Source: Mycobacteriales bacterium (lineage in GTDB: Bacteria > Actinomycetota > Actinomycetes > Mycobacteriales > CADCTP01). From it: DNA of 64,000 nucleotides. Where the stretch lies: the NCBI GenBank assembly GCA_035995165.1, contig DASYKU010000066.1:1575-65574 (forward strand). Direction: 5' to 3'. Each line of letters begins with the position of its first letter. The first letter of the stretch is position 1. The notes beneath the pieces are model-generated. The model did no database searches, was not told the origin of the DNA, and saw only the letters and a program-made list of their open reading frames with translations. This document shows positions 7,106 through 28,157 of this stretch, piece after piece. A program made the translations under genes and the position numbers.

Positions 7106-8323
7106 ATGCCTGCCGTGCGCACCCTCTTCGCCCACGGTCAGGTCTTCGACGGCACCGGGTCGCCGCCCGCCGGTGCGGACGTCGTGGTGGAGGACGGCCG
7201 GATCGTCGACGTCGGGCCCGGGCTCGACGGCGACGAGCTGGTCGACTGCACCGGCACGACGCTGCTGCCCGGCCTGGTCGACTGCCACGTGCATCTGCTC
7301 TTCAGCGGGGCCCATCCGATGAAGACGCTGCAGACACCGTTCTCGTACCCGTATTTCGAGGCGGTCCGGAACCTGCGGGCCACGCTCGACCTCGGCATCA
7401 CCACCGTCCGCGACGCCGGCGGGGCCGACCTCGGGGTCAAGGAGGCGGTCGCGGCCGGGCTCGTGCCCGGGCCGCGGGTGCTCATCGCGGTGAGCATGCT
7501 CAGCCAGACCGGCGGGCACGGTGACGGCTGGTACCCCTCGGGCTGCTCGGTGCCGCTGGTCCAGCCGCACCCGGGCCGGCCGAACACGGTCGTCGACGGG
7601 CCGGAAGAGATCCGCAGATGCGTCCGGGCCCTGGTCCGGGCCGGGGCGGACGTGATCAAGGTCGCCACCAGCGGCGGCGTGCTCTCGGCCCGGGACGACC
7701 CGCGGCACGGCCACTTCCGGGACGAGGAGGTGGCGATGATGGTGCACGAGGCCGAGGCCGCCGGGATCACGGTCATGGCGCACGCGCAGGCGACCGAGGG
7801 GATCAAGACCGCCGTACGCAACGGGGTCCGGTCGATCGAGCACGGGATCTACCTCGACGACGAGGCGATCGAGATGATGCTCGACTGGGGTACCTGGCTG
7901 GTGCCGACGCTGGCGGCGCCGCGGGCGGTGCTGGACATGGCCGCGTCCGGGGTGCAGTACCCGGACGCCGTGCTGGCCAAGGCGCGGATGGTGCTGGAGG
8001 AGCACACGACGTCCGTACGGCGGGCGATCGCGGCCGGGGTGACGGTGGCGATGGGGACCGACTCCGGGGTCGGGCCGCACGGTCACAACCTCACCGAGCT
8101 GCAGCTGCTGGTCGACTGCGGGATGACGCCGGCGCAGGCGCTGCACGCGGCGACCCAGTCCGCGACCGAGCTGCTGGACGTGGCCGACGACCGGGGCACG
8201 ATCGCGCCCGGGCAGCGGGCCGACCTGGTCGTGGTCGACGGCGACGCGCTCGAGGTCGGCACGCTCGGCGACCGGATCCGCGCCGTCTACCAGGACGGCA
8301 CCCTCGTCTCCGGAACACCATGA
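7106..8323 (+). CDS. Amidohydrolase family metallo-hydrolase
   Basis: ATG at 7106 inside track ORF 6848..8323. N-terminal VVVEDGRIVDVG...LLPGLVDCHVHL carries the HxH metal motif. VMAHA and GTDSG motifs occur later. Confidence 0.85.
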   Translation: MPAVRTLFAHGQVFDGTGSPPAGADVVVEDGRIVDVGPGLDGDELVDCTGTTLLPGLVDCHVHLLFSGAHPMKTLQTPFSYPYFEAVRNLRATLDLGITTVRDAGGADLGVKEAVAAGLVPGPRVLIAVSMLSQTGGHGDGWYPSGCSVPLVQPHPGRPNTVVDGPEEIRRCVRALVRAGADVIKVATSGGVLSARDDPRHGHFRDEEVAMMVHEAEAAGITVMAHAQATEGIKTAVRNGVRSIEHGIYLDDEAIEMMLDWGTWLVPTLAAPRAVLDMAASGVQYPDAVLAKARMVLEEHTTSVRRAIAAGVTVAMGTDSGVGPHGHNLTELQLLVDCGMTPAQALHAATQSATELLDVADDRGTIAPGQRADLVVVDGDALEVGTLGDRIRAVYQDGTLVSGTP

Positions 8324-22157: not shown

Positions 22158-22852
22158 CCCGGCCGGCCAGCATCCCGGACGGGCTCGTGCTGGAGCTGTC
22201 CCGGGGCACGGTGCTGCCCGGGGCGTCGGCCGAGGCCGACCGGTGGATGGCGATGCTCAACGACCGCCAGGACGAGTGCGTCGCCACCCTGGACCGGGAG
22301 CGGATGGCGGTCGAGCTGGTGTTCCGGCTGCGCGAGGACGGCCGCGACCACCTCTACTGGGTGGCGATCAAGGGCGCCGGTGGGGCCGGCCCGGACCTGG
22401 CCGACCCGATCGACCGCGACCACGACGCCCAGGCCCGGCGGACCAAGGAGCCGGGCTGGGTCGAGGCCGAGCCGCAGCTGCTGTTGCTCCCGGACCCGGT
22501 TCGGCGGGCGGTGCTGGCCTGGGCGCTGCGGGACGGCGAGCGGGTGCCGCATCCGGTCACCGCGACCGTCCGGCTGGCCAGCGCCGGCCTGCACGTCATC
22601 GACCGCTGGACCGACGCCCTGGTGGACGCGCTGCTGGACGCCGGGGCGGGCGAGCCACAGGTCGGCGGCAGCCTCACCGGCGGCCGGATCGAGGTCCGGA
22701 TGACGGTCGACGCCGCGGACGTGGCCGGCGCGACGGCGGCGGCCGGCGACGTGCTGGCCGACGCGCTGGCCGCGGCCGAGACCCACGGCGTGCGGGTGCT
22801 GGGGATCTCGACCGAGGTCACGGCAGCTGACTCGGACAGCGGTACGGCCTGA
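22154..22852 (+). CDS. Hypothetical protein, N-terminal DUF6176-like region plus an extra Ala/Asp-rich C-terminal domain
   Basis: GTG 22154 overlaps the treY TGA (GTGA). N-terminal LELSRGTVLPGASAEADRWMAMLNDRQDECVATLDRERMAVELVFRLREDGRDHLYWVAIKG matches my recollection of the DUF6176 pattern. The family call is from memory only. Confidence 0.5.
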   Translation: MTRPASIPDGLVLELSRGTVLPGASAEADRWMAMLNDRQDECVATLDRERMAVELVFRLREDGRDHLYWVAIKGAGGAGPDLADPIDRDHDAQARRTKEPGWVEAEPQLLLLPDPVRRAVLAWALRDGERVPHPVTATVRLASAGLHVIDRWTDALVDALLDAGAGEPQVGGSLTGGRIEVRMTVDAADVAGATAAAGDVLADALAAAETHGVRVLGISTEVTAADSDSGTA

Positions 22853-23071
22853 CGGTGGACCGGGTCACCCCGCCGCGTCCACCGGGCGCGGCCGTGGTGA
22901 CCGCCCCGGGCTCGGCCACGGCGAGCGCGGCCGGCACGAGCCGTGGGCGCAGGGCGGGCGTGTCACTGTTCCGGCCCCGGTCCAGATGGTTAGCTGGCCG
23001 GGAACGCCGAGGCGGAACGGCACGCTGGTGCACATGTCGACGTGCGTAACGCGAACCCGGGCCGGAGGACG

Positions 23072-23524
23072 ATGTCTGCGACGAGGTCGGCCGCGTGGTG
23101 CGCGGCCGCGGTCGCGGCGCTGGTGTGGGCGCGGCGGCGAGTGCTGATCATCCGGGTCAACGGCGTCAGCATGGAGCCGACCTATCACGACGGCGACCGC
23201 GTCCTCGCCGTCCGGCCGCACCGGCGCAGCCGGTTGCGCGCCGGGGACGTCGTCGTGTTCGACCGGACCCAGCCGCGGGTCAAGCGGATCACCGCCCTCG
23301 CCGGCGCGGTCATCGACCGTGTGGAGATCCCCGCCGGCCACGTGTACGTGCGGGGTGACCGGGGCCGCTCCTACGACTCGGCGGTGCACGGCCCGATCGC
23401 CGAGAGTCTGGTCTTCGGCCGCGCGGTCCGCCGGTTCGCCCGGCCGAACGCGAATCCGGCGATGACGACACCGATGCGGCCGGGACCGGCGCCTGTCGCC
23501 GGCCCCGGCCACATCGGTGGCTGA
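23072..23524 (+). CDS. Short S26-family (signal peptidase I / SodX-like) serine protease
   Basis: About 150 aa (ATG 23072, or GTG 23042). Box B GVSMEPTY (Ser nucleophile), box D VKRITALAG (Lys base), box E GDRGRSYDS. One N-terminal hydrophobic segment. Confidence 0.8.
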   Translation: MSATRSAAWCAAAVAALVWARRRVLIIRVNGVSMEPTYHDGDRVLAVRPHRRSRLRAGDVVVFDRTQPRVKRITALAGAVIDRVEIPAGHVYVRGDRGRSYDSAVHGPIAESLVFGRAVRRFARPNANPAMTTPMRPGPAPVAGPGHIGG

Positions 23525-23527
23525 GCG

Positions 23528-23725
23528 TCAGCCGCACTCGGGGCGGGCGTTCAGGCAGCTACCCACCATTTGGTTGCCGCAGGTGTCCTCCGAGACCGCC
23601 TTGTGCTGGAAGGGCGCCGCGCAGCACCGGTAGAAGAGGAACCGGAACCTCCCACAGTTCGCGGAGGCGTCCGTCGTCGGCACGACCGCGGAGACGAGGC
23701 GGTCAGCCAGCTTGGTGATCGACAT
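23528..23725 (-). CDS. 65-aa six-cysteine peptide with a non-Sec N-terminal leader (candidate precursor peptide)
   Basis: MSITKLADRLVSAVVPTTDASANCGRFRFLFYRCCAAPFQHKAVSEDTCGNQMVGSCLNARPECG. Very strong SD (GGAGGGAGGTG, 7 nt before the ATG). High GC3. Lies 36 nt downstream of the ABC exporter on the same strand. Confidence 0.7.
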   Translation of the reverse strand: MSITKLADRLVSAVVPTTDASANCGRFRFLFYRCCAAPFQHKAVSEDTCGNQMVGSCLNARPECG

Positions 23726-23761
23726 GATGATTCACCTCCCTCCTTCGGATAGATGAGCGGG

Positions 23762-25618
23762 CTACCCGGCCTGAGCCGGCACCGCGGCGGCGCCCTCGAG
23801 GGCGTCGTCGTCGGGGTCGGCGTAGCCGGCGGCTTGAAGGGAGAACAGCTCGGCGTAGCGGCCGCCCGGACTGTTCATCAGCTCCCGGTGCGAGCCGGAC
23901 TCGGCGACGCGGCCACCGGCCAGCACGTAGATGCGCTGGGCGTGCCGCACGGTGGAGAGCCGGTGCGAGATGAGCACGCGGGCGCCGCCGATCATCGTGT
24001 CGGCGACCGCTCGGTGCAGGTCGTGCTCGGCCTTGGCGTCGAGCCCGGAACTCGGCTCGTCGAGGAGGAGCAGGTCGCAGTCCGCGCGCATCAACATGCG
24101 CGCCAGCGCGACGCGCTGCCACTGCCCGCCGGACAGGACGAGCGGGGTGTCGGCGTCGTCGACCTCTTCGGGGTCACGGAAGAAGAGCCGGCTGAGCATG
24201 GTGTCGAGGCCGCGGGGCAGGGCGGCCAGCTCGCGCTCGATGTGCGCGCGACGGATCGCGTCGAGGATCCGCGGGCGATCGTCGAGATGGTCCAGCCGCC
24301 CGACACCGACGTTCTGCGCCGCGGTGAGGTCGTAGGTGGCGAAGTCCTGGAAGACGGCGCCGATCCGGTCCCGCAGCGACACCGGGTCGAGCGCCGGCAG
24401 GTCGACGCCGTCCCAGGTGATGCGGCCGCGGGTCGGTTCGTAGAGCCGGCACAGCAGCTTGACCAGCGTGGACTTCCCTGCCCCGTTCAGCCCGACGAGC
24501 GCGACCGATCCGCCGGCCGGAATCGTGAGGCTGATGCCCTGCAGGATCCACGGCAGGTCCGGGCGATAGCGGAACCAGACGTCCTCCAGTCGGACCGCCT
24601 GTCGCAGCGGCGCGGCCGGTCGGGCCGGCGTCTCGACGACGGCAGCAGGCGCGCAGATCCCGTCGACGGCGCCGACGAGCTGCTGGCCGGACCGCAGCTG
24701 ACCCAGCGCCTGCACGGCACCGGTCAGCGCCGCGGTCAGCCCGCCGAAGGCGGTCACCACCGCGACCACCTGACCGGCGCTGGTCCCGCCGGCCGCGGCC
24801 CCGCGCGCGACGACGCCGACCGCGGCGACGACCATCGCGCCGACCACCCCGGCGGCGATCAGCTGCATCCGCAGCGTCGTGCGCTCCAGATCGCGCTCGT
24901 GCCGGTTCGCGAGGTCGAGATCGGCCAGCATCCGGTGCCGGAAGAAGTCGCCCAGCCCGAACAGTCGCAGCTCCTTGCCGGCCACCGGGTTGCAGATCAG
25001 GCTGCGGTACGCCTCGCGCCGCCGCCGGATGGGGGCGAGCCGGCCCAGCATGGAGACGTTCAGCCGGGCCAGCCGGAACTCGATCGCCATCACCGGGATC
25101 GCCCCGGCCAGCGCCAGGACCGCCAGCGGCCACGCCACGCCGAGCAGCACCACCGTGAGCGAACCGGCGGTCACCGCCGCGGTCGCGAGGCCGAGCGCGC
25201 CGCGCAGCAGCAGCTGTGGCGCCATGGCGGCAGCGTCCCCGGCCAGCGTGAGCCGATCCTGGTATCCGGGATCCTCCAGGCGGTCGACGCCGGTCTCCTG
25301 ACCGACCCGCTCATACAGCCGCCCGACGATCTGCGCGCCGGCGATCCGTCCGATCTGGCCCTGGAGGTACCGGTCCACCTCCGGTGCGCCCGCCCCGAGC
25401 AGGGTGGCCGCGACGATCGCCGCGGCATAGCCGCCGACGGCCAGGCCCGATCCGGACCCGACGATCGCGTCCACCAACCGCTGCAGGGCGACGGCCGAGA
25501 CCGCGGTGACGAGGCCGCCCACCAGGGCCAGCGCCGTCAGGGCGAGCAGCCGGCCGGGCGAGGCCCGGAGGATCAGCCGCGAGGCCGGGCTCGTGCGCGG
25601 CCGGTCACGCACGCGCAC
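23762..25618 (-). CDS. Fused TMD-NBD ABC exporter (no C39 peptidase domain)
   Basis: A six-helix ABC_membrane region is followed by Walker A GLNGAGKST, signature LSGGQWQRVALARM, Walker B LLLLDEPSSGLD and H-loop ISHRL. GTG candidates at 25618 and 25612 sit next to the upstream gene's TGA (25607..25605). The track start at 25711 is less likely. Confidence 0.88.
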   Translation of the reverse strand: MRVRDRPRTSPASRLILRASPGRLLALTALALVGGLVTAVSAVALQRLVDAIVGSGSGLAVGGYAAAIVAATLLGAGAPEVDRYLQGQIGRIAGAQIVGRLYERVGQETGVDRLEDPGYQDRLTLAGDAAAMAPQLLLRGALGLATAAVTAGSLTVVLLGVAWPLAVLALAGAIPVMAIEFRLARLNVSMLGRLAPIRRRREAYRSLICNPVAGKELRLFGLGDFFRHRMLADLDLANRHERDLERTTLRMQLIAAGVVGAMVVAAVGVVARGAAAGGTSAGQVVAVVTAFGGLTAALTGAVQALGQLRSGQQLVGAVDGICAPAAVVETPARPAAPLRQAVRLEDVWFRYRPDLPWILQGISLTIPAGGSVALVGLNGAGKSTLVKLLCRLYEPTRGRITWDGVDLPALDPVSLRDRIGAVFQDFATYDLTAAQNVGVGRLDHLDDRPRILDAIRRAHIERELAALPRGLDTMLSRLFFRDPEEVDDADTPLVLSGGQWQRVALARMLMRADCDLLLLDEPSSGLDAKAEHDLHRAVADTMIGGARVLISHRLSTVRHAQRIYVLAGGRVAESGSHRELMNSPGGRYAELFSLQAAGYADPDDDALEGAAAVPAQAG

Positions 25619-26153
25619 CCCACGGGACGCGGTCGACGGTGAAGGCGCTGCCCGCGAGCGCATCGTGGTCGAAGACCAGATAGCTCGGGAACGACGTGAT
25701 ACCGAACTCACCGGACAGCGGCCCGAGCGGGCGGTCCCGGACCACCGTGGCGATGCCGGCGAACGGCTCCTCGAGCGTCGGGTCGCCGTGCTCGGTCAGC
25801 ACGACGATCACCACCGCGGCCCCGTCGGCCGCCGCCCGCGCGGCGAGGTCACGAACCTTCGGCAGCTCCAGGTGGCAGCTGCCGCAGCCCTGGGAGAGGA
25901 ACGCCAGGAACACGCGGTGGTCGGCCAGCGTACGGAGCCGGAACGGGGCGCCGTCGGTGCCGGGGAGCTCGACGTCCGGCAACGGGCTGCCGGCCGGCAG
26001 GACCAGTGGTTCGGCGGCGGCCAGCCCGAACGGGTCTGCGGGTCGGTGCGGCGCGACCGAGGTCCGCAGCCGGCGCACGACACCGAGCAACAGCAGCAGG
26101 TTGATCAGGGTGACCACGGTCAGCACGGCGACGGCTGCGGCGAGCACGCTCAT
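25605..26153 (-). CDS. Membrane-anchored TlpA/redoxin-like thiol:disulfide oxidoreductase (CGSC active site)
   Basis: ATG 26153 gives an N-terminal TM anchor, MSVLAAAVAVLTVVTLINLLLLLGVV. A thioredoxin fold follows, with FLAFLSQGCGSCHLELP and a cis-Pro region (ITSFPSYLVF). An ATGA overlap joins it to the upstream gene. Confidence 0.82.
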   Translation of the reverse strand: MSVLAAAVAVLTVVTLINLLLLLGVVRRLRTSVAPHRPADPFGLAAAEPLVLPAGSPLPDVELPGTDGAPFRLRTLADHRVFLAFLSQGCGSCHLELPKVRDLAARAAADGAAVVIVVLTEHGDPTLEEPFAGIATVVRDRPLGPLSGEFGITSFPSYLVFDHDALAGSAFTVDRVPWGARA

Positions 26154-26674
26154 CGGGCCCGCTCCGCGGTGCCGGGCGTCCGGACCAGCGCGGTCAGGTC
26201 GTCGAGATGCACCACGAGCGCGACGAGCACGAACGCGACCGTCGCCGCGACGAGCAGCGGGCCGATGCGCACTGCCGGTCCGGACGTCGCCGCCGCCAGC
26301 AGGGCCACACCGGCCAGACCGCCATTGCGCACCGCGTGGGGCCGGCCCAAGGGTGCCCCCGACACACCGAAACACCGGCAGGCGGCGGGCGCCGGGCCGC
26401 GCGCGGCCCGCAGCGCGACGCCGGCCAGACCGAGGAGGGCCAGCGTGGCGAGCACCAGGCCGGCCACCCGCGTCGCCGGCCAGAGGCAGAGCACGACCAG
26501 AGCGGTCTCACCGGCGATCACCGCGTTGGCCACGGGCCGGGCGACCACCGGCCGGACGAGCCGCAGCGCCACCAGCGACCCGGCGAACTCGTCGCGATGC
26601 CGCGCCTTCGCCACCGCGGCGACGGCGAACGTTCCGGCCGTCACCAGCAGCGCGACCAGGTTCACACTCCCCAC
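26150..26674 (-). CDS. MauE/DoxX-family redox-associated membrane protein
   Basis: 174 aa, four TM helices. It carries the CxCFG motif (AACRCFGVSG) that I associate with MauE-type proteins. SD GGAGG lies upstream of the GTG at 26674. Confidence 0.72.
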   Translation of the reverse strand: MGSVNLVALLVTAGTFAVAAVAKARHRDEFAGSLVALRLVRPVVARPVANAVIAGETALVVLCLWPATRVAGLVLATLALLGLAGVALRAARGPAPAACRCFGVSGAPLGRPHAVRNGGLAGVALLAAATSGPAVRIGPLLVAATVAFVLVALVVHLDDLTALVRTPGTAERAR

Positions 26675-26714
26675 TGCGCCTCCTTCGCCGACTCCCTCGA
26701 GACCCTGGCGAACG

Positions 26715-26743
26715 GCGCTAAGCCGGCGCTAAGTCCGCGCTAA
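26715..26743 (-). promoter_or_regulatory. Three TTAGCGC heptamers (plus strand GCGCTAA) at exact 11-bp phasing upstream of the mauE-like operon
   Basis: Plus-strand GCGCTAA at 26715, 26726 and 26737. These lie 41-69 nt upstream of the GTG at 26674 and downstream of the permease stop (26772). Confidence 0.45.
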
Positions 26744-26771
26744 CCGCGCGGCATCAGCGGGTCGACGGCCG

Positions 26772-28157
26772 TCAGGCGCCGGCTCCGATCGTGAGGTCGC
26801 GGCTGCGGCCGGTGAGCAGGAAGTACAGGAAGACGCCGGCGCCGACGGCCAGCCAGACGATGCCGCCGACCTTCGCGTTCGTGTCGGCGTGGACGAGCAC
26901 GTAGCCGATGATCACGAACCCGATCACCGGGACGACGAGGTGCAGCAGCCAGTTCCGGCTGTGCTTGCGGATCACGTAGTGGTTGACCACCGCGATGTGC
27001 AGCAGGCAGAAGCCGAACAGCGCGCCGAAGTTCACCAGCGAGCTGATCAGGTCGAGCTTGCCGACGAAGAACAGCACCAGCACCAGCGTCAGCCCGGAGA
27101 CGACGAGCAGCGCGTTCTGCGGGATCTGGCGGCGGTTCACCACCCGCAGGAAGGCCGGCAGCTGCCCGTCCCGGGACATGCTGAACAGCAGCCGGGAGGT
27201 CGCCGCCTGGGCCGCGATCGCGTTGGCGATGCCGACCGCGAGCGCGTTGACGGCCAGGAACGCCTTGGCCCAGCCGGCCGTGGACGCGCTGCCGACCAGG
27301 TCGAAGAACGCGTTGCCGACGTGCGCGTCGTCGAAGCTGCTGGTCCCGGCGGCCAGCGCCGCGGCCAGCCAGGTCTCGCCGACGAACAGCACCGCGACGA
27401 TGAGCAGCGCGCTGACCATCGCCGTACCCGCGGCCTTGCGGCCGCCGGTGGCCTCCTCCGACAGCGTCGAGATGCCGTCGAAGCCGAGGAAGCTCAGCAC
27501 CGCGATGCTCAGCGCGCTCGCGATCAGCGCCGGGGTGACCTTGTCGGAGTCCCAGAGCTGCTCGAGGCCGAAGTGGGCGCCGGCGATCGTGCCGCGGGCC
27601 AGCGCGGTGATCGCGATGATCACGAAGATCACCAGGAAGACCAGCTCGATCGCGAGGAAGACCCGGTTGAACCGGGCCAGCGACCTGATCCCGATCAGGT
27701 TGACGATCGTGTTGACCACGACGAACGCGATCGCCCACATCCAGCGCTCGGTGCCCGGGAAGATGCCGACCATCGACTCCGCCCCGAAGACGTAGAGCAG
27801 GGTCGGGACGAGCAGGTAGTCCAGCAGGATCGACCAGCCGGCGAAGAAGCCGAGCACCTTGTGCAGCCCGCGGCCCACGTACGCGTAGACCGAGCCGGCC
27901 AGCGGGAACTCCTTGGCCATCTGCGCGTACGCCAGCGCGGTGAAGATCATCGCGACCAGGCCGACCACGTAGACCAGCGGGACCATGCCCTCGGCGGCGT
28001 TGTAGACGGTGCCGAAGATCGCCCAGGGCGCGATCGGCACCATGAAGATCAGGCCGTAGATGATCAGATCGACGGTGGAGACGGAGCGGCGCAGCTCCTG
28101 CTGGTAGCCGAACTCACGCAGGCCGTCCTCGGGCGTGGCGGCGGACTCGGTGGGCAT
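26772..28157 (-). CDS. APC-family amino acid/polyamine permease
   Basis: 461 aa, 12 TM. The N-terminus (...FGYQQELRRSVSTVDLIIYGLIFMVPIAPWAIFG) is typical of PuuP/amino acid permeases. Confidence 0.88.
   Translation of the reverse strand: MPTESAATPEDGLREFGYQQELRRSVSTVDLIIYGLIFMVPIAPWAIFGTVYNAAEGMVPLVYVVGLVAMIFTALAYAQMAKEFPLAGSVYAYVGRGLHKVLGFFAGWSILLDYLLVPTLLYVFGAESMVGIFPGTERWMWAIAFVVVNTIVNLIGIRSLARFNRVFLAIELVFLVIFVIIAITALARGTIAGAHFGLEQLWDSDKVTPALIASALSIAVLSFLGFDGISTLSEEATGGRKAAGTAMVSALLIVAVLFVGETWLAAALAAGTSSFDDAHVGNAFFDLVGSASTAGWAKAFLAVNALAVGIANAIAAQAATSRLLFSMSRDGQLPAFLRVVNRRQIPQNALLVVSGLTLVLVLFFVGKLDLISSLVNFGALFGFCLLHIAVVNHYVIRKHSRNWLLHLVVPVIGFVIIGYVLVHADTNAKVGGIVWLAVGAGVFLYFLLTGRSRDLTIGAGA

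What the first reader, a model, noticed from the sequence alone, without database searches (positions are those of the whole stretch)
23072..26743. Orphan operon: MauE-like, TlpA-like CxxC protein, ABC exporter and a six-Cys leader peptide, plus a convergent SodX-like S26 protease
Four minus-strand genes are packed as one unit.
- The MauE-like gene starts at GTG 26674 behind GGAGG.
- An ATGA overlap (26153..26150) leads into a membrane-anchored thioredoxin-fold protein with a CGSC site.
- The ABC exporter has GTG candidates 3-9 nt upstream of that gene's TGA.
- After a 36-nt gap comes a 65-aa peptide gene with one of the strongest SD sequences in the window.
- A short S26 protease ends 3 nt from the peptide stop on the other strand.

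No classical RiPP tailoring enzyme is present in the block (no YcaO, radical SAM, LanB/C/M, lasso B/C, or C39 domain).

Two established precedents fit the parts. MauE and thioredoxin-like MauD are needed to mature the disulfide-rich small subunit of methylamine dehydrogenase. SodX, a short S26 protease, removes a non-Sec leader from NiSOD.

My inference is a self-contained system that exports a peptide, oxidises its six cysteines outside the cell, and clips its leader. The product would be a defensin-like bacteriocin or a signal peptide. I do not recognise this gene combination as a described family.
Basis: partly seen in the sequence, partly recalled or inferred. Interest (0 to 1): 0.86.

Follow-up and report, generated by a model that had tools for sequence, protein, structure and literature searches.

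The report
Disulfide-rich peptide maturation and export cassette
A soil actinomycete carries a compact gene set that appears to make, fold with disulfide bonds, trim and export a small cysteine-rich peptide; the same five-gene set occurs in Streptomyces loci flagged by computer in 2020, no member has been studied experimentally, and this copy has lost its activator gene.

Summary
On the minus strand lie a MauE-like gene (26674..26150), a membrane-anchored thioredoxin-fold CGSC protein (26153..25605), an ABC half-transporter (about 25612..23762) and a 65-aa six-Cys peptide gene (23725..23528). A short S26 peptidase gene converges on the peptide gene.

The small ORF is real. About 25 relatives share a leader (MSIxKLxxRLxxAxVPxxxAxA) and a variable core, and 25 of 27 cores have an even Cys count. 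Wherever enough flanking DNA is held, the peptide gene sits with some or all of the same four protein families, in Mycobacteriales, Pseudonocardiaceae, Amycolatopsis and Streptomyces.

The cassette is not undescribed. decRiPPter (2020) listed mauE-containing Streptomyces loci with Cys-rich precursors as candidate RiPP classes, and those loci carry the same five genes. A 2026 preprint shows that MauE can replace DsbB through a CXC motif, which is conserved here.

Most likely this is a dedicated system for a disulfide-rich secreted peptide. Two points are new:
- Charge bias in 8 of 8 orthologues places the CXC loop and the thioredoxin domain on the cytoplasmic face. This conflicts with the idea that oxidation happens outside the cell.
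- The neighbouring SARP activator is reduced here to a 150-nt remnant, although its presumed binding repeats survive.

No member has been characterised experimentally.

The parts
26715..26743 (-). Three TTAGCGC heptamers at exact 11-nt spacing, ending 41 nt upstream of the MauE-like start codon. Candidate SARP-binding box and operon promoter region.
   Evidence: Two or three copies are conserved upstream of the MauE-like gene in L001, L002, L004, L012 and L006. SARPs bind heptameric direct repeats in classical 11-bp units (PMC10972967). Function is inferred, not shown.
26150..26674 (-). MauE-like membrane protein, 174 aa. Five predicted TM helices, with a conserved CRC (CXC) motif in the loop between TM3 and TM4. 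Proposed DsbB-like quinone-linked thiol oxidase.
   Evidence: PF07291 at 71.9 bits. C99 and C101 are invariant in 11 relatives, and C[RA]CFG is present in 8 of 8 cassette orthologues. AF2 model has pLDDT 82.6 with helices at 2-25, 42-64, 66-92, 111-129 and 138-164. The CXC motif is the active site of MauE enzymes that replace DsbB (preprint 10.64898/2026.03.05.709764).
25605..26153 (-). Thioredoxin-fold protein, 182 aa, with an N-terminal TM anchor followed by RRLR and a CGSC(H) active site. Proposed partner that passes disulfides between MauE and the peptide.
   Evidence: Redoxin and AhpC-TSA Pfam hits. Weak ResA/TlpA-type NCBIfam hits and no MauD hit. Nearest PDB sequences are TlpA/DsbE/Etrx-type thioredoxins. 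CxxC and the anchor are conserved in 8 of 8 orthologues. ATGA overlap with the MauE-like gene.
23762..25612 (-). ABC half-transporter, about 616 aa from GTG 25612, with an N-terminal membrane domain and a C-terminal ATPase. ABCB/MsbA-type exporter without a C39 peptidase domain. Proposed peptide exporter.
   Evidence: Start chosen by alignment with orthologues. It is 39-53% identical over its full length to the ABC genes of the Pseudonocardiaceae, Streptomyces and Amycolatopsis cassettes.
23528..23725 (-). Precursor peptide, 65 aa. Leader is residues 1-22 (MSITKLADRLVSAVVPTTDASA, 23725..23660). The 43-aa core has six Cys (23659..23531). SD GAAGGAGGGAGGTGA lies at 23746..23732.
   Evidence: Family found by exhaustive HMMER and by profile search. 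Conserved position in the cassette. Four invariant Cys. Even Cys counts and A-x-A leader ends. dN/dS of 0.23-0.34 for the core among L002, L012 and L013.
23072..23524 (+). Short S26 (signal peptidase I type) protease, 150 aa from ATG 23072 or 160 aa from GTG 23042. Short N-terminal hydrophobic segment, SMEPT (Ser), VKR (Lys) and GDxxxSxDS motifs. Proposed leader peptidase cutting after A-x-A.
   Evidence: Motifs conserved in 8 orthologues. An S26 gene is adjacent in every cassette locus except L002/L003.
22881..23029 (-). Frameshifted remnant (residues 16-65) of the roughly 960-aa SARP (BTAD plus TPR) regulator that is divergent from the S26 gene in related loci. About 2.7 kb has been deleted here.
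   Evidence: tblastn. blastn shows that L001 8882..11609 is replaced by about 75 nt in the window.

Best explanation
This is a dedicated cassette that makes, matures and exports a small disulfide-rich peptide. It belongs to a rare actinomycete family whose Streptomyces relatives were flagged in silico as candidate RiPP loci.

Proposed steps:
1. In intact loci a large SARP activator binds 11-nt-spaced heptamers upstream of the MauE-like gene and switches on the operon. This is inferred. In this window the SARP gene is deleted, so expression here is doubtful.
2. The 65-aa precursor is translated. That the gene is real is shown by conservation.
3. The membrane-anchored thioredoxin-fold protein (CxxC) introduces or shuffles disulfides in the 43-aa core. 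It is re-oxidised by the MauE-like protein through its CXC motif, which passes electrons to quinone as DsbB does. This is inferred from the family and from published MauE experiments.
4. The short S26 peptidase removes the 22-residue leader after the invariant A-x-A (ASA|NCG). This is inferred from the motif and the gene linkage.
5. The ABC half-transporter carries the peptide out. The leader is not a Sec signal and the transporter has no C39 domain. This is inferred.

Product: predicted to be a 43-residue, mildly cationic peptide with three disulfides. It is probably a competition or antimicrobial peptide, given its hypervariable cationic cores and its SARP control.

Open point: the face of the membrane at which steps 3 and 4 occur is not settled.
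- Precedent (DsbB-type MauE, Bdb proteins, signal peptidases) says outside, after export.
- The charge distribution of the three anchored proteins says the cytoplasmic face, before export.
- I lean slightly towards the conventional order.

The confidence given (0.65) is for the general function (a dedicated maturation and export system for a disulfide-rich peptide), not for either order of steps.
For: Gene identities.

Gene linkage:
- The five families co-occur with different flanks and different gene orders. In L006, L009, L012, L013, L015 and L020 the peptide gene is last and the S26 gene is convergent. In Streptomyces L016/L017 and L019 and in Amycolatopsis L018 the peptide gene is first and all genes run the same way.
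- All five components are homologous between the window and those loci. The ABC proteins are 39-53% identical over their full length.

Peptide family:
- The leaders are conserved and every one ends in A-x-A, 0-1 residues before the first Cys.
- Cores carry 6, 8 or 10 Cys in 25 of 27 sequences.
- C27 and C53 appear and disappear together between subgroups.

Redox pair:
- The CXC motif is invariant.
- MauE replaces DsbB and needs its CXC motif.

Selection and regulation:
- The enzymes are under purifying selection, with dN/dS of 0.2-0.6.
- A SARP gene is adjacent in 7 contexts, and conserved heptamer repeats lie upstream.
Against: - No product, transcript or activity has been observed for any member.
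- No immunity gene is evident.
- The thioredoxin-fold protein is nearest in sequence to TlpA/ResA/DsbE-type proteins, which are usually reductants.
- K/R bias predicts that the CXC loop, the thioredoxin domain and most S26 domains face the cytoplasm. This does not fit the conventional order.
- Two family members have an odd Cys count.
- In this window the SARP gene is a remnant and the peptide core shows a raised dN/dS of 0.64-0.84. This copy may be silent or decaying.
- Sister loci have lost the S26 gene (L002/L003) or most of the cassette (L004/L005).
Confidence: 0.65

Rival explanations
1. The same parts work in the opposite order. The disulfides are made and the leader is cut on the cytoplasmic face of the membrane, and the ABC transporter then exports the folded core. 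The S26 enzyme would play the role that the cytoplasmic C39 domain plays in bacteriocin ABC exporters, or that SodX plays for NiSOD.
For: MauE-like protein:
- In 8 of 8 orthologues the N-terminus, the TM2-3 turn and the TM4-5 loop carry 0-1 K/R.
- Loop 1, the CXC loop and the C-terminus carry 7-13 K/R (using helices).

Thioredoxin-fold protein:
- In 8 of 8 orthologues the anchor has no K/R before it and 2-4 directly after it.

S26 protein:
- Most S26 anchors have more K/R after than before.

Calibration:
- The positive-inside rule holds for the neighbouring permease (21 vs 5) and for the ABC membrane domain (13 vs 2) in this same window.

Leader:
- Its hydrophobic stretch is too short and too charged to present a cleavage site as a membrane-embedded signal peptide would.
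Against: - All known bacterial systems for structural disulfides act outside the cytoplasm.
- The two MauE proteins tested experimentally must face the periplasm in order to replace DsbB.
- From general knowledge, the actinomycete cytoplasm is strongly reducing.
- Some of the conserved Arg residues near the CXC motif may be functional rather than topogenic.
- Only a hand-made charge count was run; no topology predictor was available.
Confidence: 0.3
2. The MauE and thioredoxin-fold pair is reductive or an isomerase rather than an oxidase. It would keep the cysteines reduced, or correct wrong pairings, for a peptide whose thiols are used in another way. One possibility is metal binding by the new N-terminus x-C-G-x-C that cleavage exposes.
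For: - The thioredoxin-fold protein scores best against ResA/TlpA/DsbE-type reductants.
- Its CxxC dipeptides are of the thioredoxin/TlpA type: CGPC, CTPC, CKPC.
- The preprint notes an earlier report of MauE as a possible reductase.
- Cleavage leaves a Cys at position 2 (or at position 1 in the Streptomyces-type cores). As I recall it, this is reminiscent of the NiSOD nickel hook after SodX cleavage.
Against: - Even Cys counts in 25 of 27 cores, and the paired gain and loss of C27 and C53, point to disulfides.
- MauE lacks DsbD/CcdA features and behaves as an oxidase in vivo.
- C27 is absent from the window's subgroup.
Confidence: 0.1
3. In this particular genome the cassette is a silent relic that is decaying, so nothing is produced here. 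This does not exclude the best explanation for the family as a whole.
For: - The SARP gene is deleted down to a frameshifted remnant of about 150 nt.
- Sister lineages show other deletions: the S26 gene is lost in L002/L003, and the thioredoxin C-terminus, ABC, peptide, S26 and SARP genes are lost in L004/L005.
- The window's peptide core is the most divergent of its subgroup, with dN/dS of 0.64-0.84 against 0.23-0.34 for the others.
Against: - All five ORFs are intact and keep their catalytic motifs.
- The enzymes show no window-specific relaxation of selection.
- The heptamer repeats and SD sequences are retained.
- Another SARP could act in trans.
Confidence: 0.35
4. The small ORF is a chance ORF, and the four proteins are a general envelope disulfide or efflux module.
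For: High-GC DNA gives many spurious ORFs, and the peptide matches no curated family.
Against: - Peptide homologues sit at the same position in every cassette, down to 38% identity.
- The leader and four Cys are conserved.
- The SD sequence is strong.
- dN/dS is below 0.35 among three relatives.
- A DNA pattern for the leader hits only these loci.
Confidence: 0.02

Closest known systems
decRiPPter 'MauE' candidate RiPP families in Streptomyces (Kloosterman et al. 2020, PMC7794033)
   Same: - A Cys-rich precursor lies next to mauE (and mauD-like) genes.
- The loci of Streptomyces sp. 2112.3 and its relatives carry the same five families: peptide, MauE, thioredoxin fold, ABC and S26.
- All five are homologous to the window's genes.
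- The leaders share the pattern ..RL....VP...A.A.
   Different: - Gene order differs: the peptide gene is first and the S26 gene runs the same way.
- Cores are shorter, with 8-10 Cys.
- No SARP gene lies nearby; the neighbours are AraC- or HTH-type regulators.
- The paper mentions only mauE, mauD and the Cys count, not the S26 or ABC genes or any mechanism.
- No member has been characterised.
- Peptide-level homology to the window is weak (pairwise E of 4e-5 to 0.04).
Sublancin 168 operon of Bacillus subtilis SP-beta (sunA, sunT, bdbA, sunS, bdbB)
   Same: - A bacteriocin operon that carries its own membrane thiol oxidase and thioredoxin-like protein, together with an ABC exporter, for a disulfide-containing peptide.
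- This rests on my own knowledge. The papers listed were seen only as titles and abstracts.
   Different: - BdbB is DsbB-type rather than MauE-type.
- The leader is removed by the C39 domain of SunT, not by an S26 enzyme.
- Sublancin is also S-glycosylated by SunS.
MauE/MauD of methylamine dehydrogenase (mau) clusters
   Same: - A MauE-family membrane protein is paired with a CxxC thioredoxin-fold protein.
- The pair serves a small substrate with many disulfides.
   Different: - No other mau genes are present.
- The thioredoxin-fold protein does not reach the MauD model.
- The substrate is a 43-residue peptide with its own exporter and protease.
MauE as a general DsbB substitute (bioRxiv 10.64898/2026.03.05.709764)
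   Same: - The Pfam family is the same.
- The CXC motif lies in the loop between TM3 and TM4.
- The core is a helical bundle.
   Different: - This protein has a fifth TM helix.
- It is dedicated to one operon.
- Its charge bias predicts the opposite orientation to the periplasmic CXC reported there.
SodX, the NiSOD maturation protease
   Same: - It is a short S26 enzyme without the large beta-domain, dedicated to removing a short non-Sec leader.
- The alignment covers the whole SodX model.
   Different: - The score (30.8 bits) is below the SodX cut-off (63.25), while the signal peptidase I cut-off is passed.
- An N-terminal hydrophobic segment is present.
- No sodN gene is present.
Peptidase-containing ABC transporters (PCAT) of class II bacteriocins and lanthipeptides
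   Same: An ABCB-type half-transporter is encoded next to a leader-bearing peptide.
   Different: - There is no C39 domain and no GG leader motif.
- Scores are far below the family cut-offs (TIGR01193: 120 vs 524).
- Proteolysis is assigned to a separate S26 enzyme.

Membership tests
MauE family (PF07291) / DsbB-like MauE oxidases | Match to the Pfam MauE model above the gathering score | tested here: met
   71.9 bits against a cut-off of 27, covering residues 6-128.
MauE family (PF07291) / DsbB-like MauE oxidases | [quoted passage not shown] | tested here: met
   C99-R-C101 lies in loop 93-110 between helices 66-92 and 111-129. It is invariant in 11 relatives and in 8 of 8 cassette orthologues.
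MauE family (PF07291) / DsbB-like MauE oxidases | CXC loop faces the outside (periplasmic side) | tested here: inconclusive
   K/R counts of 0-1 against 7-13 predict the cytoplasmic side in 8 of 8 orthologues. No dedicated topology predictor or experiment was available.
MauE family (PF07291) / DsbB-like MauE oxidases | Can replace DsbB in vivo, or uses quinone | not testable with these tools
   Needs complementation of an E. coli dsbB mutant.
MauD (TIGR02661) | Match to the MauD model; location in a mau cluster | tested here: not met
   No MauD hit at E <= 0.1; only weak ResA/TlpA-type hits. No mau genes lie nearby.
Thioredoxin-fold thiol-disulfide oxidoreductase (Redoxin/AhpC-TSA, TlpA-like) | Thioredoxin fold with a conserved CxxC site | tested here: met
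   PF08534 at 35.7 bits and PF00578 at 34.8 bits, both above their cut-offs. CxxC is conserved in 8 of 8 orthologues. PDB relatives are TlpA/DsbE/Etrx proteins.
Signal peptidase I (S26; TIGR02227) | Model score above the cut-off; Ser/Lys dyad motifs | tested here: met
   57.5 bits against 47. The SM.PT, KR and GD...S.DS motifs are conserved in 8 orthologues.
SodX (TIGR02754) | Model score above the cut-off; adjacent sodN gene | tested here: not met
   30.8 bits against 63.25. No sodN gene is present in the region.
PCAT / bacteriocin ABC exporter (TIGR01193, TIGR03796) | N-terminal C39 peptidase domain; model score above the cut-off | tested here: not met
   No C39 Pfam hit. Scores are 120 against 524, and 163 against 853.
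decRiPPter MauE candidate RiPP loci | Cys-rich precursor gene next to mauE; same accessory genes; homologous components | tested here: met
   Precursors are taken from S2 Table. Loci L016-L019 have a peptide gene plus MauE, thioredoxin-fold, ABC and S26 genes. Pairwise BLASTP is significant for all four proteins against L016 and L018; against L019 the thioredoxin-fold pair is not significant (E 0.10). The peptide is weakly related (E 4e-5 to 0.04).
RiPP in the strict sense | Post-translational modification beyond proteolysis and disulfides | tested here: not met
   No tailoring enzyme lies in or beside the block. A methyltransferase occurs only in the L009-type variant.
SARP-controlled biosynthetic cluster | Cluster-situated SARP gene and heptamer repeats in 11-bp units near the promoter | tested here: inconclusive
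   Repeats are present at 26743..26715 and are conserved. A SARP gene is present in 7 related contexts but is only a remnant here. Binding was not tested.

The most novel reading that the evidence does not exclude
The MauE-like oxidase, its thioredoxin partner and the S26 protease all work on the cytoplasmic face of the membrane. The peptide would then be oxidatively folded and trimmed before the ABC transporter exports it.

This would be a membrane-channelled pathway for making disulfides inside a bacterial cytoplasm. [quoted passage not shown]
Probability: 0.3. Interest if true: 0.8.

Novelty: new variant of a known kind. Interest (0 to 1): 0.55.

Why it matters
If the model holds, this is a minimal route to disulfide-rich secreted peptides in actinomycetes. 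It would use a MauE-type oxidase in place of DsbB or VKOR, and a private S26 protease in place of a C39 domain or the general signal peptidase.

- It would give the first natural, dedicated substrate for the newly proposed MauE oxidative pathway.
- It would give function to a candidate class that decRiPPter listed in 2020 and that the literature searches run here did not find taken up since.
- It would offer a small, portable cassette for producing knotted peptides.
- The topology conflict is directly testable. Resolving it would show whether some MauE systems make disulfides before export.

This particular copy has lost its activator. It is therefore more useful as a sequence variant than as a producer.

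Tried and rejected
- The peptide matched nothing in Pfam or NCBIfam.
I replaced it with a degenerate DNA pattern for the leader. That pattern hit only known instances locally, two MAGs among 185,579 species genomes and one JGI contig.
- A giant protein with 21 repeat matches (P0017) is a repeat-rich surface protein sharing only a D-x-C-G-N motif. I rejected it as a chance match.
- The AF2 model of the peptide is weak: pLDDT 62, a small beta-sheet. Foldseek against the PDB gave nothing below E = 1. Laterosporulin at E 1.4-2.7 is not significant, so the claim of a defensin-like fold is untested.
- tblastn of the MauE-like protein against plasmids, aimed at a canonical mau cluster for comparing topology, found nothing.
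- The sigma-70 promoter and intrinsic terminator scans found nothing in 22700..27000.
- Literature searches on 'MauE' were polluted by an author of that name. Whole-word searches gave only decRiPPter and the 2026 preprint.
- The apparent MauE-thioredoxin fusion in L001 is an artefact of indel errors in that contig.
- The Catellatospora MauE (L007) has an unrelated context.

Full report
**What is there**

The window is high-GC DNA (about 74%). Its peptide is 100% identical to a hypothetical protein of a soil 'Mycobacteriales bacterium' MAG.

The ORF table and the raw sequence confirm every structural statement of the finding:
- A GTG start at 26674 sits behind GAAGGAGG.
- An ATGA overlap lies at 26153..26150.
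- GTG candidates for the ABC gene lie 3 and 9 nt upstream of the upstream gene's TGA. Alignment with orthologues favours 25612, which gives an 8-nt overlap.
- A 36-nt gap follows, then the GAAGGAGGGAGGTGA Shine-Dalgarno sequence and the 65-codon ORF.
- The convergent S26 gene ends 3 nt from the peptide stop.

HMM searches give:
- MauE (PF07291), 71.9 bits.
- Redoxin and AhpC-TSA for the CGSC protein.
- ABC_tran with MsbA/HlyB-type full-length similarity but no C39 domain.
- Peptidase_S26. This protein passes the NCBIfam signal peptidase I cut-off and fails the SodX cut-off.

The peptide matches no curated family. The flanking genes are housekeeping.

**The small ORF is a real, conserved gene**

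A word-seeded search found one relative. An exhaustive HMMER search of 1.84 billion representatives found four real clusters. A profile search found about 25 sequences.

The peptides share these features:
- A leader of the form MSIxKLxxRLxxAxVPxxxAxA.
- An invariant A-x-A that ends 0-1 residues before the first Cys.
- Four invariant Cys.
- A variable, mostly cationic core.

25 of 27 cores have 6, 8 or 10 Cys. C27 and C53 are gained or lost together between subgroups. This is what disulfide partners would do.

Among L002, L012 and L013 the core has dN/dS of 0.23-0.34.

A degenerate DNA pattern for the leader is specific. It finds only two MAGs among 185,579 species genomes and one JGI contig, so the family is rare and its window-like branch is known only from uncultured soil actinomycetes.

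**The gene set is a conserved module**

Neighbourhoods show MauE, thioredoxin-fold, ABC and peptide genes with a convergent S26 gene in several Mycobacteriales and Pseudonocardiaceae contigs that have different flanks.

The literature search was decisive. decRiPPter (PMC7794033) had already listed three Streptomyces candidate RiPP families that contain mauE, one of them with mauD as well, and precursors with at least 8 Cys.

I fetched those loci and an Amycolatopsis relative. They carry the same five families in the order peptide, MauE, thioredoxin fold, ABC, S26.

All four proteins of the window are significantly similar to those of L016 and L018. The ABC proteins are 39-43% identical over their full length. 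For L019 the thioredoxin-fold pair is not significant (E 0.10). The peptides are weakly similar, mainly in the leader.

So the combination has been published as an in-silico candidate. That paper does not mention the S26 or ABC genes or any mechanism, and no member has been characterised.

**Mechanistic leads**

A 2026 preprint shows that MauE from two phyla replaces DsbB in E. coli. It also shows that the CXC motif between TM3 and TM4 is essential, and that about 8% of MauE proteins are fused to thioredoxin-fold domains.

The window's protein has this motif (C99-R-C101). It is invariant in relatives and sits in the loop between helices 3 and 4 of a confident AF2 model (pLDDT 82.6), which also has a fifth helix.

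The partner protein has a conserved CxxC site and an N-terminal anchor. It is nearest to TlpA/DsbE/Etrx-type thioredoxins.

The S26 enzyme keeps the Ser and Lys motifs. The invariant A-x-A at the end of each leader is the classical specificity of this protease family.

The leader has too short and too charged a hydrophobic stretch to be a Sec signal. That fits a dedicated ABC exporter.

**The topology problem**

I counted Lys and Arg on each side of the predicted helices:
- In all 8 MauE-like orthologues the side bearing loop 1, the CXC loop and the C-terminus has 7-13 K/R, and the other side has 0-1.
- In all 8 thioredoxin-fold orthologues the anchor starts at residue 1-2 with no K/R before it and is followed by RRLR-type sequences.
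- Most S26 anchors show the same trend.

The rule works in this same window for the neighbouring permease (21 vs 5) and the ABC membrane domain (13 vs 2). Taken at face value, the redox centres face the cytoplasm.

This conflicts with the periplasmic CXC of the tested MauE proteins and with all precedent for structural disulfide formation.

I could not run a topology predictor, and some of the conserved Arg residues may be functional. I therefore leave the membrane face open and lean slightly towards the conventional order. The alternative is the most interesting reading the data allow.

**Regulation and decay**

Three TTAGCGC heptamers at exact 11-nt spacing lie at 26743..26715 and are conserved upstream of the MauE-like gene in related loci. 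SARPs bind such repeats.

A large SARP (BTAD plus TPR, about 960 aa) lies next to the S26 or peptide gene in L001, L002/L003, L013, L006/L014, L015, L008 and L020.

In the window only residues 16-65 survive, with a frameshift, at 23029..22881. About 2.7 kb that is present in L001 is missing.

Sister lineages show other losses:
- L002/L003 lack the S26 gene and keep only a 3' remnant of about 60 nt.
- L004/L005 keep only the MauE-like gene and a truncated thioredoxin-fold gene.

The enzymes of the window remain under purifying selection, but its peptide core is the most divergent of its subgroup. This copy may therefore be silent.

**Verdict**

However:
- The family is not unrecognised.
- 'Outside the cell' is unproven and is contradicted by charge bias.
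- 'SodX-like' is only loosely true.
- The missing activator was overlooked.

The system is best described as a new variant of the known theme of bacteriocin operons that carry their own disulfide machinery. It belongs to a published but uncharacterised candidate class.

Noticed in passing
window 22881-23029 (minus strand): A frameshifted remnant of the N-terminal 50 residues of a large SARP regulator. About 2.7 kb of the gene is deleted relative to L001 and L013.
   Followed up: yes
window 26715-26743 (minus strand): Three TTAGCGC heptamers at 11-nt spacing upstream of the MauE-like gene, conserved in L001, L002, L004, L012 and L006. They look like a SARP box.
   Followed up: partly
L002 9130-9228 and L003: This widespread sister lineage (17 contigs carrying its MauE-like protein were read) has lost the S26 gene and keeps only about 60 nt of its 3' end after the peptide stop. 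The SARP gene is intact there.
   Followed up: partly
L004 6001-6916 and L005: A decayed locus. Only the MauE-like gene and a truncated thioredoxin-fold gene remain between the formamidase and DUF6176/TreY genes.
   Followed up: partly
L009 7080-9024 (also L010, L011): A variant cassette with a SAM-dependent methyltransferase and a DUF4328 protein between the peptide and S26 genes. This could be a truly modified (RiPP) branch.
   Followed up: no
L020 6620-6970: An extra 116-aa protein with a signal peptide and several Cys lies between the ABC gene and the peptide gene. The S26 gene there (7609..7271) was not called by the source.
   Followed up: no
window 25605-26674 and orthologues: A conserved acidic DDL motif after the last helix of the MauE-like protein and a conserved RRLR after the thioredoxin anchor lie on the same predicted side of the membrane. 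This may be a docking pair.
   Followed up: no
window 23531-23659: The window's peptide core differs at positions that are conserved in its subgroup (A38P, K40Q, T52Q, W54V). Its dN/dS against relatives is 0.64-0.84, compared with 0.23-0.34 among the others.
   Followed up: partly
P0017: A 2896-aa repeat-rich surface protein matched the peptide profile 21 times through a shared D-x-C-G-N motif. This is a chance motif match, not a relative.
   Followed up: yes
L001 5059-6126: The apparent MauE-thioredoxin fusion and the split ABC gene in this contig come from indel errors. Its peptide (P0002, five Cys) should be read with caution.
   Followed up: yes
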